A stretch of 64,000 bases of DNA, taken from assembly GCF_026571515.1 (NCBI RefSeq), contig NW_026862067.1:62001-126000 (forward strand), read 5' to 3'. Shown here in pieces: positions 1 to 6,000 of the stretch; position 1 is the stretch's first letter, and each line of letters begins with the position of its first letter. Source of the stretch: Ruditapes philippinarum (Eukaryota). Position numbers: made by a program.

Positions 1-3000
1 TAAGGTTTACTCTATTTGCATAGAGGGCACAGTTATTCACATGACCCTCTCGACTCTTATTTTGAATTATCATTTTACACAAAGCTATTTCGTCAAACAA
101 CTTGTCTTTGTTATAGATTTACATTTCAATTATTCTATTCTATATAGTTTCATCAGCTGTAAAATGATCATGTTTACATTTAATAAATATAAATATAGAT
201 AATAATACAATATGGTTCACTTTGAAATTCATTTCAGTGAATTTTCATTTGTTATTGCACTGTGAATTTAGTTAAACACGCGAAATTTTGAATTCAATTG
301 TTAAATATACGCCCTAAAAATAATGTGTACAGTTATTTCAATTTCACAAAAGTATAGGATAAGCATAATGGCAAAACAAATCAATAAGACTAAAGTTTAA
401 ATTTCTAGTATAATTGCTTGTTTAACAGGTAATATAATAATAATGAATTCCCTTTTAAGCAGTATAGCTTTTTTTGGCACTTGAGTAAATAACCTAGCAT
501 ATAATTTCTCATGCATACAATGGCAGTTTTTGTTAAACATATATAAAATCGACAAATACTATCAAATGAATATGTATTTTATCTTATCTAAAAGAAATAA
601 ACTCTCCATTCATTCCGATTTGCGCAACAAAACGTGCAAAACACCGATGAACACAAATATTAAAAAGTTATTTCAACAAAACAAACATCACGCCATACGT
701 TGACAAGAAATTTAAGTCAATGTATTAAATACAATCATAAAAAATTAAAGTTTGAAAGAGAATAAACCTTCTAGAATCCATAGCTAGAATTCCAATACCC
801 GAGCGTGTTAAATTCACAATTCAACTACTCTATTTGGCACTGCGTACACAAAAAATTTAATAACTTGTGATCGACTTTTAGCCGTTTAAATTTAATAAGG
901 TTTTTAACAAACAAATAGCTAAAGCTCTGTTTAACCCAGAATTGAACCGCTGATCTATATTGTGTAAAACTATCTTGATTGGGCGAAAAGTGGAAATAGT
1001 GCAATAAAAGAGTTTAAGTTAGTGAACCACTCTTTGTTGGGTGAATACATATAATTATTCCATATAGCATGTAACAGCAAGCTTTCATTCCGCATATCAT
1101 CTAATATTGTATAATCAAGTATTTAATATTGCAAAAATACCCAAGAGAATTCTTGTAACATTTTATATGAAATGGCAAAACGAATAAAGTGCTGTGCTCA
1201 CAAATATACAAACAGAAAACAACAGTACTAAGCAACAAATCAGCTGATTTGGATTTCGAAATGTTATTGCCCGTAACATTCTTTTAAATAATCTAATAAT
1301 GCATTTGAAATATTACAATTATAATGATAACCATGTATTTTCTTATTTCTTACTGTATTGGGTGAAGTTAATGCAAACCTAAATGATCATAGAACATTAT
1401 CAAGGACTTAAGATATTGCATAAATGTGTTTATCTGGCATCAGAAATTCCGAAATCTTCATCCGAAAAAAGTTGCAACCATAATAATTGGTGCCTGATAA
1501 TGATACAAATTTGAGAATTGCAAGTGTAAAGAAGTGCATCCAGTTGTTCAGATGTGTATTATAGACAATACCGATCAGTATAAGAAAATGGGTAACCCAG
1601 GTAATCGACGGCTAACGCATCAAAACTGAAATAGGAAAACAATAAAAGCGAATTTTGAAATATCAAATTGAATTACTTAAATTGTATTGGGACCATCTAA
1701 CATTGTCGTGCATGTATTTCTAAACAAACGTATAAGGCAGGGATACAAACATAATTAACATATACGTGTGTAACATTTGCGATGACACGTGAAAATGGAG
1801 CACGGTAGGTTTGGGAATCAACACGCACGATCTTACCGTGCATCTATACTTTGACGGTTTTCTGAATTTCTCGCAGTATCTGATTTTATATCTCTTCTTC
1901 AGTATGAAAATAAATAGTCATAGAAAAAAACAACAGACAACCACAGGCTTAAGTCTTTTTCAGAAATGTATGATATGAAACTTGTAATTAAAAGGTAACT
2001 TAAGTTCAATGTTAAGTTATTAGGCATTGTTTAATACATAAGCAGTAAAAGCAAAAATTTGATGAAAAAAAAACAACCTTTTCAGTATTAACTAAAGACA
2101 GAATTGACATGCTCTATTACATAAACAAAAACCAACAAGACATAATTATACTTCAAGATGCATTTGTTAAGAATTATTTTACATTTTCAGATTATAAAAC
2201 TCAACAAAACGATACCAAAACGTGTCTCAAGCAGTGAAACTAAAGTCAATATGGATAATTTGAAAGAATATACATTAACATTGTTATAAAACAAGCTGGT
2301 TTGCTTCGAAAAGACTGTCTTGATATTTTCATATAAATGCTTTCATTTGTTACGTTAGTTTTATAGCTTTGAGTACACTTTTTGTTTTATATCTTTATTA
2401 AAACACGTGTTTTATCGCCATGGAATTGTTTCCAGAAGGACAGAATTCCAGCTGGAAAATATACCAGGCGGTGCTACCAAGGTCTCACCTTTGCCATCGA
2501 GGGTCATAGAATGCCAAATCTCGTTTACTCAAATGTGAGATTCTTACAGATAAAAAAGGAAAAGTAGAAACAATAAAAATCATTGTTACAATCACATTAA
2601 AGAGAGAATTGTTTCTAGAAAACATAAAAAACCTTTCTAACTAATTACGATTGGCACGTGATGAAATAATTTTGATCTAAATTGCATTTGATTTAAAGCC
2701 GGTTAAAACTATTTAATCTAAGAATATTGCATCCAAAATAAAATATCAAGACGAAAAAATACTACGATTGGAATTTAAATTTTAGAAAACCCTTACCAAT
2801 CGTCTGACCCTTGCTGGATGTACCGGCTCAAAAATTACAAGAAATTCAAAATTAGATAAATCACTACGTTAAGAAAGTTCCGTGTCAAGAATTGTGAACA
2901 AAATCGGATTATAACGGAGTGATTTACATTGTTATTTTTACCAAAGTAATTCAGATTGTTAATCTAGGACACGTGACGTTATTACTAGAAGTGAGGCAAT

Positions 3001-6000
3001 GTGTACAGTGGCTCATAAGTAAGTGAAATACTGTTCGATAATTTTGATAACTCTTAAACTATCATCCAGTACAAAAATAATAATAAAAAAACTTGTATTC
3101 GTTTACGATTCATAATGAAAAGCATTTTCTTCTAACACGTTTGAAATCTAATTTAAGAAGCTTCTATTGAAAAATTAAGACAAACATTATCACAAAATGC
3201 AGTCATTTCTAAAACAGAAATTACAAATCGTAGTACTTTTGAATAAAAAAGAAACTTTGTTAAATAATAATGAACAGAAAGACACCGTGACGTTAGTAAG
3301 TTAAATAAGTACTTTTAATATGCTTTGGATTTTATCTGAAGACTCACTGAAATTTGCTGCAATCAGTAGATAATTGTTTGTTAAACGAGAGACAGATTTA
3401 GTATATGGTTGTTGTTGAACACAACACAATGAAGAACTCTGTTCATTAACTTCTACTTAAGTTAGACACCAGACATGTGCGTATGACATTTCTTATTTTA
3501 TGTATACACATGAAAATAAAATGCAATGTTAAAGAACAAAAATAGTTTCTCCATTGTTTGTTTGGCTTCAAATGACCAAGCAAGTTTTTTTTATCCAGCA
3601 ATAAGTACATGGGCAGGCCTAAATGTTACTTGACGTTCTTCTATCCTCTTATATAAATACATGAAGACACTATGCTTAAACGTAATATTAAGGGTTCATC
3701 CCAAAACAAGACTTTATGTTTACAGAAAAGGATGCAAATATGATGTTTCTATATCTAAATAATATACAAAACAAGTATGTGTAATAGAAACAACTAGAAT
3801 TACGCTAGCAAGACGAGTTTATATGTAAACTATGAGAATTTATTAAAAGCTGTATAACCACCTCGAAGCTACGCTAGACTTACGGGTAATATGCAATACT
3901 TCGGTGTGATAGAAGATTAAATCTGAAATTTGTTTTGGAAATACATATCAAATATTAATTTTGTAAACGAGGAAATATTTTTGTCAACGCTTAAATAACA
4001 GATCTCATGTAATTCAAACGCGTTGTATGTTTTATTCATGGTAAAATGAAGCTATACAGCTTTTAATTTCATAAATTTGTTGTTTTTGTCTGACAGTCAG
4101 AACCTTATACATGTATATGTGTTATAAAGCTTTGAATAAATGCGTACGTATTTATTTTAGCAAAAATATATACACGCAAGTATATCAGTATTAACAATAT
4201 TTCACGAAGAATTAACTATCAAAAAGGATAAATGGAAATAATACAATATGTGGTAGATTATCAATAAAAAGTTATGCTTCTTTAATTTAAAAGAAAACGT
4301 TTACATAATAAAACATTTCTACTTGAGTATTTCCAAGATAAGAAAGACACTGAGTCTAAGACAGTTACTACCGTTCGAGGATGTATAACATTCAATAAAA
4401 ATAACTAGCATCACAAAAGTGTTATATTTACAGTTAATGGTATTTTGAAATATCTAATGCAAAAGAACGTGGTTTGCCATAGTCTTTTCCCTACAATTTG
4501 TTCATACATAAATCATACTTTTGTTCGATTTTAGGGATTTTCACATCCAGACTGAGTATTCAATCACCATTCATGGGCTTTCTTTAACGTTCTTTTTTGG
4601 TCCCCATTTGATAATAATAAAAATATCTTGCTGTCCATATACAAAACAAAACTCTAGATGATCTTAGTCGGTTATTTGATACAGGTATGTTCTATCAGTA
4701 ATAATTGTTATCTAATAATACATTTACCCGTGTCCTCTAGAAATAAACACATCATAATATATATAATAATTATATATATATATAACATTATTGTAACATT
4801 AATCAAATACTTACGTTCTGTCTGGATGTCCATGTGGGATCTCACCCTTGTTATATTTGCGTGGTGAGGCACCTCCCTCAGATTTTGTTAGCCTATTTGG
4901 TGACATTGACCTGTTTGATGTGTCTCCACCCCTTGGGGACTTGATTCCTGGTGGGGTATCTGAATATAGTATTAAAATAACGTAAAAGCCGATTATAAAG
5001 GAAGACCTATCATAGCAATAGCATAAGCGCTACTAGATTTTTTTTTCTTAGCGCATATACCATATCAAATAAGCTAAAAGCAGTAACTGCTTGGTCATTC
5101 TGTGATGATGAAACCAACAAAAGCCGTATTTGAAAAACATACACTAGATCATTATTTGATGGTACAAAAACGTCAGCAAAATTGTCCAGCAACAAAATTT
5201 ATGTTATATAGATCAATCAATCAATCTTGAAACTTTTATCACCAAATAAAATTCATTTTATAAAATAGATACATTTATCAAGTAAAAGTATGTGACATTA
5301 AAATCTTGAGTAAATATGAATGTGTGAAAGCGTGCATTTTCTCAAAACATGTGAACAAATACAGGTGTCATTATATTACTATCATTATCAGAAAAACCAC
5401 GTGTAACTGGCAACACGTGTTAAATGAATCAAAACACAATGCTAATGAAAGTAAACACTTATTTTAGTAAAAATCAAACCAAAACAAATCATGTTAATTA
5501 TCTTAAGTAATTCAAAACATGTAGTTTTGCATTACAAGTTTCAACCTAAATACATTACAACCAATCAAAGTTGATTACTAATACACTTATAGTAAAATGT
5601 GTCTCACAGATCAGACAAGTCGATTGGTTATATTCTTATAATATTAAAAATCAAATAAAACCATTTGGTTATATCTTAATAAAATCTACAATCCAGTAAA
5701 GTCGTTTGGTTATAATTTAATGCAATCCACATATATATGTTCTAAGTATTAGCAGAGTGAGTCTTATGTAAAACGACACTTAGTGAGTGAACAAGCAATC
5801 TAAACATAACATTTTATAAAAGTTACTATATTTATCATCATTGAAATTCAATTTAAATTCTAACTAAGCATCAATAATCATTTTATGAATATATCAAATG
5901 CTAGCTTTGACAATACTACGTTTTTGTTGAGTATTAGGTGGTAAGTTACACAGACACTATAAAGGTTATATTGTGGCTTTACAACTTTAACTGTGGGGGT

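What the first reader, a model, noticed from the sequence alone, without database searches (positions are those of the whole stretch)
1572..4736. Hidden array of frame-preserving mini-exons in the SPEF1 tail, three encoding look-alike peptides
Seen: after exon 4 the minus strand has six small AG/GT-bounded segments (9, 39, 30, 54, 60, 54 nt). All are multiples of three, all phase 2-2 as required, and all are stop-free. Three align without gaps from the exon start: FNLLSHRSIAY (3884-3922), ISHLSKRDLAF (2489-2542) and FDALAVDYLGY (1572-1625), i.e. hydrophobic-x-x-L-[SA]-x-x-x-[IL]-[AG]-[YF] then P. Known: SPEF1 is normally a CH domain, a linker and a coiled coil; the coiled coil is not in this window. 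Inference: duplicated, possibly mutually exclusive or alternative-terminal exons give a ciliary microtubule-binding protein interchangeable tails. I do not know of a description of this for SPEF1.
Basis: partly seen in the sequence, partly recalled or inferred. Interest (0 to 1): 0.75.

Follow-up and report, generated by a model that had tools for sequence, protein, structure and literature searches.

The report
Alternative mini-exons in clam SPEF1 linker
Five of the six small segments are real, optionally included coding pieces in the flexible middle of a clam cilia and sperm-tail protein; public gene models already contain four of them, and they lengthen the protein's middle rather than swap its tail.

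Summary
The window is from Ruditapes philippinarum (Manila clam). It holds the 5' two-thirds of the SPEF1-like gene LOC132717823 on the minus strand.

- Four segments match NCBI isoform models X1-X7 letter for letter: A 3884-3922, B 2489-2542, C 1837-1896, D 1572-1625.
- The 30-nt segment (2797-2826) is in no Ruditapes model. It is the best match in the window to a 10-residue cassette of Mercenaria isoform X4.
- The 9-nt segment has no support: 0 of 90 relatives carry it.

These are internal cassette exons, not tails. All 8 isoforms continue into the same downstream exon and coiled coil, which lie outside the window. They are not mutually exclusive either: X8 has none, and X1, X6 and X7 have B plus D.

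A-, B- and D-type cassettes recur in Mercenaria and Mya, and A and D also in Dreissena and Mactra. The look-alike claim holds for A against B (3 of 2000 shuffles). It fails for D (483 and 2000 of 2000).

AlphaFold2 places B and D in a low-confidence, probably disordered linker. No paper describing this turned up. Interest is modest.

The parts
4815..4959 (-). SPEF1 exon 4 (constitutive linker exon). It ends with 2 bases of a Thr codon, so the next exon must supply 1 base.
   Evidence: boundaries; present in all 6 aligned isoforms; also in X1 and X4.
4728..4736 (-). 9-nt candidate. Unsupported and probably a chance pseudo-exon.
   Evidence: Present as described. It is in none of the 8 Ruditapes isoforms, and 0 of 90 aligned relatives have a 3-residue insert. 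Similar-strength 9-nt candidates lie nearby.
3884..3922 (-). Cassette A, 39 nt, phase 2-2.
   Evidence: Exact match to isoform X5 (P0002). Rank 1 of 1503 candidates against the A cassettes of Mercenaria, Mya and Dreissena. tblastn top hit for the same three.
2797..2826 (-). Cassette E30, 30 nt, phase 2-2. It is in no Ruditapes model returned by the searches.
   Evidence: Rank 1 of 186 30-nt candidates in the whole window against the 10-residue cassette of Mercenaria X4 (P0081): score 19, next best 10. tblastn top hit, 6 of 10 identical, E 0.47. GC 0.57 against 0.285 background.
2489..2542 (-). Cassette B, 54 nt, phase 2-2.
   Evidence: Exact match to isoforms X1, X4, X6 and X7. Mercenaria B hits it at E 2.5e-6, 72% identity. 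Rank 1 of 1503 for Mercenaria B and Mya B.
1942..1980 (-). B-like segment (B'). AG/GT-bounded, in frame and unannotated. It may be a decayed duplicate of B or an unused cassette.
   Evidence: Second-best hit in the window for Mercenaria B (E 0.08). Rank 2 of 1503. Local score 30 against B. Its donors are weak.
1837..1896 (-). Cassette C, 60 nt, phase 2-2, polar and charged.
   Evidence: Exact match to isoform X2 (P0004). Moderate match to the end of the Mactra model P0006 (score 27). Orthology to the Mya and Dreissena cassette in the same position is not shown.
1572..1625 (-). Cassette D, 54 nt, phase 2-2, acidic and aromatic.
   Evidence: Exact match to isoforms X1, X3, X6 and X7. Mya D top hit, E 0.009. 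Against 54-nt candidates it ranks 1 of 100, score 32 against 1.
9801..10027 (-). Exon 3 (end of the CH domain plus linker), with an alternative internal donor at 9894. Both donors are phase 1.
   Evidence: X6 and X7 use the short form.
6764..6784 (-). 21-nt microexon in intron 3, phase 1-1.
   Evidence: Isoform X6. 5-residue counterparts in Mercenaria X6, Dreissena P0022, Mya X10, P0047 and P0051.
10425..10536 (-). Exon 2 (core of the CH_2 domain).
   Evidence: Pfam PF06294, E 1e-10, 41.9 bits.
14966..15125 (-). Exon 1 coding part (start codon and the beginning of CH_2).

Best explanation
The segments are a row of optional cassette mini-exons in the Manila clam SPEF1-like gene. All are inserted at one splice junction, after exon 4.

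How it works:
- Every cassette is a multiple of three, starts by completing the same codon and ends by leaving two bases. Any subset can therefore be spliced in, in genomic order, without shifting the frame.
- The inserts (0 to 36 residues in the annotated models) lie in the low-confidence, probably disordered linker between the microtubule-binding CH domain and the dimerising C-terminal coiled coil. That coiled coil is the same in all isoforms and lies outside the window.

Shown:
- The existence, frame and position of the exons.
- Their presence in isoform models, and the recurrence of A, B, D and E30 in other clams.
- The position of B and D in a low-confidence linker.
- A-B similarity beyond chance.

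Inferred:
- The cassettes tune the length and the sticky aromatic, proline or charged content of the linker arm.
- That in turn would tune the reach, solubility or partner binding of a dimeric microtubule cross-linker in different ciliated cell types.
- A and B would offer the same short motif, roughly L-S-x-R-x-[ILM]-x-x-aromatic-(x)-P, from two exons that arose by an old duplication.
For: Identity of the gene:
- Exon 3 alone retrieves R. philippinarum 'sperm flagellar protein 1-like' isoforms at 100% identity.
- CH_2 (PF06294) is matched by exons 1-3, searched one at a time.

Exons in models:
- A, B, C and D map exactly onto isoforms X5; X1/X4/X6/X7; X2; and X1/X3/X6/X7.
- The combinations are none, A, B, C, D and B+D.
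- All 8 isoforms share the same downstream sequence, and none of it is in the window.

Conservation:
- Cassettes of types A, B and D occur at the same junction in Mercenaria and Mya. A and D also occur in Dreissena and Mactra.
- Within isoforms they keep the order A before B before C before D, which is the genomic order here.
- Foreign A, B, D and E30 cassettes find the matching window exon as best or second-best hit among 1503 candidates.
- Four unnamed proteins (P0015, P0019, P0047, P0051) come from contigs of 1.1-2.1 kb. That is too short to be unspliced, given that this gene spans more than 15 kb, and all four carry cassettes.

Disorder:
- The AlphaFold2 model of X1 has a confident CH domain (about 24-135) and coiled coil (276-330). 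pLDDT is below 50 for residues 158-270, which includes B (216-233) and D (234-251).

A-B similarity:
- Anchored score 19, p about 0.0006 against 865 pseudo-exon peptides.
- At the profile level, 3 of 2000 column shuffles reach the observed score.

Function of the parts (passages read):
- Spef1 is CH + IDR + coiled coil, and deleting the IDR lowers solubility (bioRxiv 10.1101/2025.07.31.667833).
- The CH domain binds the central-pair seam, and dimers may cross-link C1 and C2 (bioRxiv 10.64898/2025.12.03.689828).
Against: - The isoforms are automatic NCBI models. I saw no reads, so inclusion levels, tissue pattern and true full-length combinations are unknown.
- E30 is in no Ruditapes model, and its cross-species match rests on 10 residues.
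- Cassette C has no demonstrable orthologue in Mya or Dreissena by score.
- Splice-site strength and GC alone only weakly separate the exons from background. A in particular has GC 0.33.
- There is no DNA-level similarity between A, B, B' and D or their flanks. Duplication is therefore inferred from about 11 residues only, and convergence on a motif is an alternative.
- The functional reading (linker tuning, shared motif) has no direct test here. Low pLDDT indicates disorder only indirectly.
Confidence: 0.85

Rival explanations
1. One reading: duplicated exons used in a mutually exclusive way, or as alternative last exons, give SPEF1 interchangeable tails.
For: - The exons are alternative, share a phase and sit in a row.
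- A and B look alike.
- In oysters, though not in this window, isoforms do carry three different versions of the C-terminal coiled-coil segment. Tail swapping therefore exists in the family.
Against: - None of the six has a stop codon.
- All 8 Ruditapes isoforms have the same C-terminus after the cassettes.
- X8 has no cassette, and X1, X6 and X7 have two.
- Mya models pair A+B, B+C and C+D.
Confidence: 0.03
2. Splicing noise: the cassettes are weak cryptic exons that an automatic pipeline picked up from rare junction reads. They have no function.
For: - The models are automatic.
- Several splice sites are mediocre: the A acceptor has 9 of 17 pyrimidines, and the D donor has 1 of 4 consensus matches.
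- Pseudo-exons of the same form are common.
Against: - Peptides of A, B, D and E30 are conserved in frame across Veneridae, Mactridae, Myidae and Dreissenidae (lineages). Noise would not preserve them.
- Transcript-length contigs in relatives contain them.
Confidence: 0.05
3. Chance: the six segments are ordinary AG...GT open stretches in an AT-rich intron, and the peptide resemblance is coincidence.
For: - This holds for the 9-nt segment.
- It also holds for the resemblance of D to A and B once orthologues are used.
- There are about 120 naive candidates per 4.8 kb on either strand.
Against: - Exact matches of four segments to isoform models.
- Rank-1 cross-species matches.
- The A-B score is reached by 0-1 of 865 null peptides.
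Confidence: 0.03
4. A and B resemble each other through convergence on one short binding or phosphorylation motif, not through exon duplication.
For: - There is no DNA similarity in the exons or flanks.
- The shared stretch is only about 11 residues. It sits at the C-terminal end of A but at the N-terminal end of B in the orthologue alignments.
Against: - Same phase, neighbouring positions in one intron and similar size.
- A third B-like segment lies at 1942-1980 in the same array. That fits repeated local duplication.
Confidence: 0.25

Closest known systems
SPEF1 / CLAMP (CH domain, disordered linker, coiled coil) as described in vertebrates and Tetrahymena
   Same: - Same family: CH_2 domain, named SPEF1-like by NCBI, C-terminal coiled coil in the database isoforms.
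- The three-part layout matches the description in bioRxiv 10.1101/2025.07.31.667833 (passages) and PMC9796845 (passages).
   Different: - The passages I read in those papers describe one protein form. The word 'splic' occurs 0 times in the first and 'splice' 0 times in the second.
- Here the linker is assembled from optional mini-exons: 8 models in Ruditapes, up to isoform X13 plus one further model in Mya, and up to X19 in Crassostrea angulata.
Frame-preserving cassette exons and microexons in disordered regions of cytoskeletal and neuronal proteins (the bilaterian microexon programme; PMC8797185, seen as search listing and abstract only)
   Same: - Short symmetric exons, conserved over long times.
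- They insert a few residues into a protein without disturbing the folded domains.
- The 21-nt exon at 6764-6784 has TGC at -5 of its acceptor. From recall, that is the kind of signal used by that programme.
   Different: - The five supported cassettes are 30-60 nt. From recall, the usual upper limit for microexons is 27 nt.
- None of the five has TGC within 45 nt upstream.
- Tissue specificity is unknown, and several cassettes share one junction.
Tandemly duplicated alternative exons, for example the duplicated exon of oyster alternative oxidase (PMC5589949, seen as search listing and abstract only)
   Same: Neighbouring exons of equal phase with related peptides (A and B, perhaps B') used alternatively.
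   Different: - From recall, duplicated-exon clusters of this kind are usually mutually exclusive and clearly similar over their whole length.
- Here the exons can be skipped or combined, and similarity is limited to about 11 residues with no DNA similarity.

Membership tests
SPEF1 / CLAMP protein family | N-terminal CH_2 (PF06294) calponin-homology-like domain | tested here: met
   Exons were searched one at a time: exon 2 E 1e-10 (41.9 bits, cut-off 27), exon 1 E 8e-5, exon 3 E 5e-4. The last two are below the cut-off on their own because each is only a piece of the domain. The precomputed Pfam annotation on the full database isoforms is PF06294.
SPEF1 / CLAMP protein family | C-terminal dimerising coiled coil | tested here: met
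   It is not in the window. In the database isoform X1 (P0076) a single helix at 276-330 has block-mean pLDDT of 91-97 across residues 281-320. Dimerisation itself was not tested.
Cassette (skipped) exons | The same flanking exons are joined both with and without the exon | tested here: met
   X8 joins exon 4 directly to the downstream exon. X2, X3, X4 and X5 each insert one cassette, and X1, X6 and X7 insert two. This is at the level of NCBI models, not reads.
Cassette (skipped) exons | Junction reads or cDNAs in this species | not testable with these tools
   No read or transcript collection of this species was available. Transcript-length contigs of unnamed relatives carry cassettes (P0015, P0019, P0047, P0051).
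Mutually exclusive exon cluster | Exactly one exon of the cluster in every transcript | tested here: not met
   X8 has none. X1, X6 and X7 have B+D. Mya has A+B, B+C and C+D.
Alternative terminal exons ('interchangeable tails') | The exon carries its own stop codon and the isoforms differ at the C-terminus | tested here: not met
   All six are stop-free in frame. All 8 isoforms have an identical C-terminal sequence.
Tandem exon duplicates | Sequence similarity between neighbouring exons beyond chance | tested here: inconclusive
   - A-B is met at the peptide level: p about 0.0006, and 3 of 2000 shuffles.
- A-D is 483 of 2000 and B-D is 2000 of 2000, so neither is met.
- There is no DNA-level similarity.
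Microexons (strict sense; the 3-27 nt definition is recalled) | Length of 27 nt or less | tested here: not met
   The supported cassettes are 30, 39, 54, 60 and 54 nt. Only the unsupported 9-nt segment and the separate 21-nt exon at 6764-6784 fall within the limit.

The most novel reading that the evidence does not exclude
Clams of the Imparidentia, and perhaps all bivalves, keep a combinatorial splicing module at one junction of SPEF1. The module sets the length and motif content of the arm between the seam-binding CH domain and the dimerising coiled coil. Different cilia (gill, larval velum, sperm flagellum) and non-ciliary microtubule arrays would then get cross-linkers of different reach or different partners. 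A and B would supply one reiterated docking motif from two ancient duplicate exons. Oysters would have gone further and also swap the coiled coil itself.
Probability: 0.2. Interest if true: 0.5.

Novelty: new member of a known kind. Interest (0 to 1): 0.3.

Why it matters
SPEF1 is needed to build and align the central pair of motile cilia. It is usually treated as one small protein of fixed layout.

If the clam cassettes are regulated by tissue, they would be a natural experiment on how the disordered linker of a microtubule cross-linker sets its behaviour. It would also be a conserved alternative-splicing module from molluscs; I did not survey how many such cases are described.

As it stands, the finding mostly confirms what NCBI's automatic annotation already shows. 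This work adds:
- the likely missing 30-nt exon;
- a B-like relic;
- cross-family conservation;
- the A-B relationship;
- the correction that these are linker inserts and not tails.

Tried and rejected
- Splice-site and frame criteria as a test. They are too permissive: about 120 candidates per 4.8 kb on either strand. My first filter (pyrimidine fraction at least 0.7 plus a consensus donor) printed none of the 170 candidates, the true exons included, so I dropped it.
- DNA-level duplication. MAFFT of A, B, B' and D with 30-nt flanks shows no meaningful alignment. The repeat finder gives only 10 short two-copy families, none over the cassettes. One search failed on a strand-format slip and was repeated.
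- D as a third paralogue. Rejected at the profile level.
- Orthology of Ruditapes C with the Mya and Dreissena cassette in the same position. Not shown: the Mya C cassette, searched against the window, does not find Ruditapes C in its top four, and the reverse alignments of Ruditapes C against a Mya (P0082) and a Dreissena (P0089) protein match elsewhere in those proteins.
- Counterparts of the Mya 30-nt and 42-nt cassettes in this window. None found.
- Oyster cassettes against this window. No convincing hits. The B-like '[FY]-D-x-W' resemblance (scores 17-21 against a background of 8-14) is only suggestive.
- Splicing-regulator motifs. No TGC within 45 nt upstream, and no GCATG within 200 nt, of any of the six segments. 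With one genome this says little.
- Rfam on 1-16000: no RNA family.

Not done:
- I built no joined spliced model of my own. Exons were searched one by one, and all full-length proteins used are database records as returned.
- Genome contigs holds only bacteria and archaea, so it was not used.
Supplements of papers were closed, and none was needed.
- The exon structure of the relatives' genes and any read evidence therefore stayed unchecked.
- The N run at 12880-13012 (intron 1) was left as it is.

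
Full report
**What the window is.** The first 16 kb carry, on the minus strand, the 5' part of a SPEF1-like gene in AT-rich DNA (GC about 0.29-0.30).

I set the exon limits by reading the sequence:
- exon 1: 14966-15125;
- exon 2: 10425-10536;
- exon 3: 9801-10027, with a second in-phase donor at 9894;
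- exon 4: 4815-4959.

Exon 4 ends with two bases of a codon. I built no joined spliced model. Each exon was translated and searched on its own.

Pfam CH_2 (PF06294) is matched by exon 2 (E 1e-10), exon 1 (E 8e-5) and exon 3 (E 5e-4). Exon 4 matches nothing. Exon 3 alone retrieved 75 proteins among 348 candidates. The best are 'sperm flagellar protein 1-like' isoforms of Ruditapes philippinarum at 100% identity. A cluster look-up added isoforms X1 and X4 and the gene name LOC132717823. The window is therefore Manila clam. A run of N at 12880-13012 lies in intron 1 and was left alone.

**The observation.** All six segments are present exactly as described: 4728-4736 (9 nt), 3884-3922 (39), 2797-2826 (30), 2489-2542 (54), 1837-1896 (60) and 1572-1625 (54). 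Each follows AG, precedes GT, is a multiple of three and is open in the frame that exon 4 dictates.

These properties alone prove little.
- Candidates of this form, 9-60 nt long, number 125 on the minus strand and 118 on the plus strand of 1-4814. The window average is about 121-125 per 4814 nt.
- With a crude strength score whose threshold I took, after the fact, from the weakest of the six, the region has 12 on the minus strand. The plus strand has 4, and the window averages 3.5-5.6 per 4814 nt.
- GC is raised in E30, D and B, but hardly in A and C.

**What decides it.** An alignment of six Ruditapes isoforms, the two further isoforms and exact mapping of their peptides onto the window show four segments in NCBI models:

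| Cassette | Coordinates | Isoforms |
|---|---|---|
| A | 3884-3922 | X5 |
| B | 2489-2542 | X1, X4, X6, X7 |
| C | 1837-1896 | X2 |
| D | 1572-1625 | X1, X3, X6, X7 |

X8 has no cassette. The 30-nt segment is in no Ruditapes model. However, Mercenaria isoform X4 has a 10-residue cassette at the same junction. That cassette's best tblastn hit in the whole window is 2796-2825 (6 of 10 identical, E 0.47).

The 9-nt segment is in no isoform of any species. Of 90 aligned proteins, 0 have a 3-residue insert, and it is no stronger than other 9-nt candidates nearby.

**They are linker inserts, not tails.** Every isoform continues after the cassettes into the same sequence and the same C-terminal coiled coil. 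None of that downstream sequence is in the window: 0 of 6 peptides were found. It must lie beyond position 1.

The cassettes are not mutually exclusive, since X8 has none and X1, X6 and X7 carry B and D together. In Mya the models pair A+B, B+C and C+D. In every combination the order is the genomic order found here. These models are automatic, so the true full-length combinations are open.

**Conservation.** Inserts at the same junction were extracted from 90 stored proteins by alignment columns.

- A-type cassettes occur in Mercenaria, Dreissena, Mya and Mactra.
- B-type occur in Mercenaria, Mya and the unnamed P0015.
- D-type occur in Mercenaria, Dreissena, Mya, Mactra (P0092) and the unnamed P0019, P0047 and P0051.

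These genera belong to Venerida and Myida within Imparidentia.

Against 1503 candidates of 30-60 nt on both strands:
- the foreign A cassettes rank window exon A first (3 of 3);
- the foreign B cassettes rank exon B first (2 of 2);
- the foreign D cassettes rank exon D first (a tie) or second;
- the Mya cassette that sits where C does fails to find Ruditapes C.

Only the Mactra model gives a moderate match to C (score 27).

Wider relatives:
- Oysters (Pteriomorphia) have another set of cassettes at the same junction. They also have three versions of the C-terminal coiled-coil segment.
- A unionid model has one 12-residue insert.
- The unnamed P0043 has a 20-residue insert.

Four unnamed proteins with cassettes come from contigs of 1.1-2.1 kb. 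These can only be spliced transcripts.

**The look-alike peptides.** Anchored at the exon start, scores were compared with 865 pseudo-exon peptides from the window:

| Pair | Score | p (about) |
|---|---|---|
| A-B | 19 | 0.0006 |
| A-D | 13 | 0.0035 |
| B-D | 3 | 0.054 |

With small orthologue alignments and column shuffling, A-B is reached by 3 of 2000 shuffles, A-D by 483 and B-D by 2000. So A and B share a motif (about L-S-x-R-x-[ILM]-x-x-aromatic-(x)-P), and D does not.

A further B-like, in-frame, AG/GT-bounded stretch lies at 1942-1980. It is the second-best hit of Mercenaria B and scores 30 against B. It is unannotated and has weak donors.

There is no DNA-level similarity among these exons or their flanks. 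Any duplication is therefore old, and convergence cannot be excluded.

**How it probably works.** An AlphaFold2 model of isoform X1 (a database record, with 33 sequences in the alignment) gives a confident CH domain and a confident helix at 276-330. pLDDT is below 50 for residues 158-270, which include B and D.

Passages read in two preprints and one review describe the protein as follows:
- Spef1 is CH plus disordered region plus coiled coil.
- The CH domain binds microtubules and the coiled coil dimerises.
- Deleting the disordered region lowers solubility.
- The CH domain sits on the central-pair seam, and dimers may cross-link C1 and C2.
- The review gives the same domain layout.

I infer that the cassettes adjust the length (0-36 residues in the models) and the motif content of the arm between the microtubule-binding head and the dimer. 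This step was not tested.

**Known or new.** Five searches of the paper library found nothing on SPEF1 mini-exons or bivalve SPEF1 isoforms:
- SPEF1 with microexon: 0 papers.
- SPEF1 with domain and isoform terms.
- SPEF1 with splicing and bivalve terms: among the 15 papers listed, one oyster paper mentions spef1, once.
- The protein's full name with cassette exon.
- One search on microexons in general.

The exons themselves are already in NCBI's automatic annotation. This work adds the probable 30-nt exon, the B-like relic, the cross-family conservation, the A-B relationship and the correction of the 'tail' reading.

**Limits.** No reads or cDNAs of this species and no eukaryotic genomes of relatives were available. 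The only open contig collection holds bacteria and archaea and was not used. The two other collections and the paper supplements were closed.

Noticed in passing
window 9801-10027 (-), internal donor at 9894: Exon 3 has two donors in the same phase. The long form adds 31 residues to the linker. Isoforms X6 and X7 use the short form, and the same choice is seen in Mercenaria, Mya and Dreissena models.
   Followed up: partly
window 6764-6784 (-): A 21-nt microexon in intron 3 is used in isoform X6 together with the short exon 3. 5-residue counterparts occur in Mercenaria X6, Dreissena P0022, Mya X10, P0047 and P0051. It has TGC at -5 of its acceptor, unlike the cassettes downstream.
   Followed up: partly
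window 1942-1980 (-): An unannotated B-like, in-frame, AG/GT-bounded segment lies between B and C. It may be a decayed duplicate exon.
   Followed up: partly
window 3884-3898 (-): An internal AG inside exon A would give a 15-nt version of the exon. The unnamed relative P0047 carries a 6-residue piece that looks like the end of A in front of its D cassette.
   Followed up: no
proteins P0024-P0075 (oysters), not in the window: Oyster SPEF1 isoforms carry three different versions of the C-terminal coiled-coil segment as well as their own cassette set at the same junction. Real tail swapping exists there.
   Followed up: no
window 26426-26863, 32405-32872, 50420-50893 (-): Three C1q-domain exons (Pfam PF00386, E 1e-14 to 9e-17). 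Similar upstream open frames lie at 27138-27491, 40325-40684 and 58026-58289, which suggests a tandem family of C1q-domain genes.
   Followed up: partly
window 18654-19766 and 21837-22133 (+): A Deltex-like gene (RING finger plus Deltex C-terminal domain) with a five-fold 9-residue repeat near its start. It is divergent from SPEF1 exon 1.
   Followed up: no
window 62421-63245 (+): An open frame of 275 residues with a CCHC zinc knuckle. It may belong to a retroelement.
   Followed up: no
window 12880-13012: A run of 133 N in intron 1 of SPEF1. It was left untouched.
   Followed up: no
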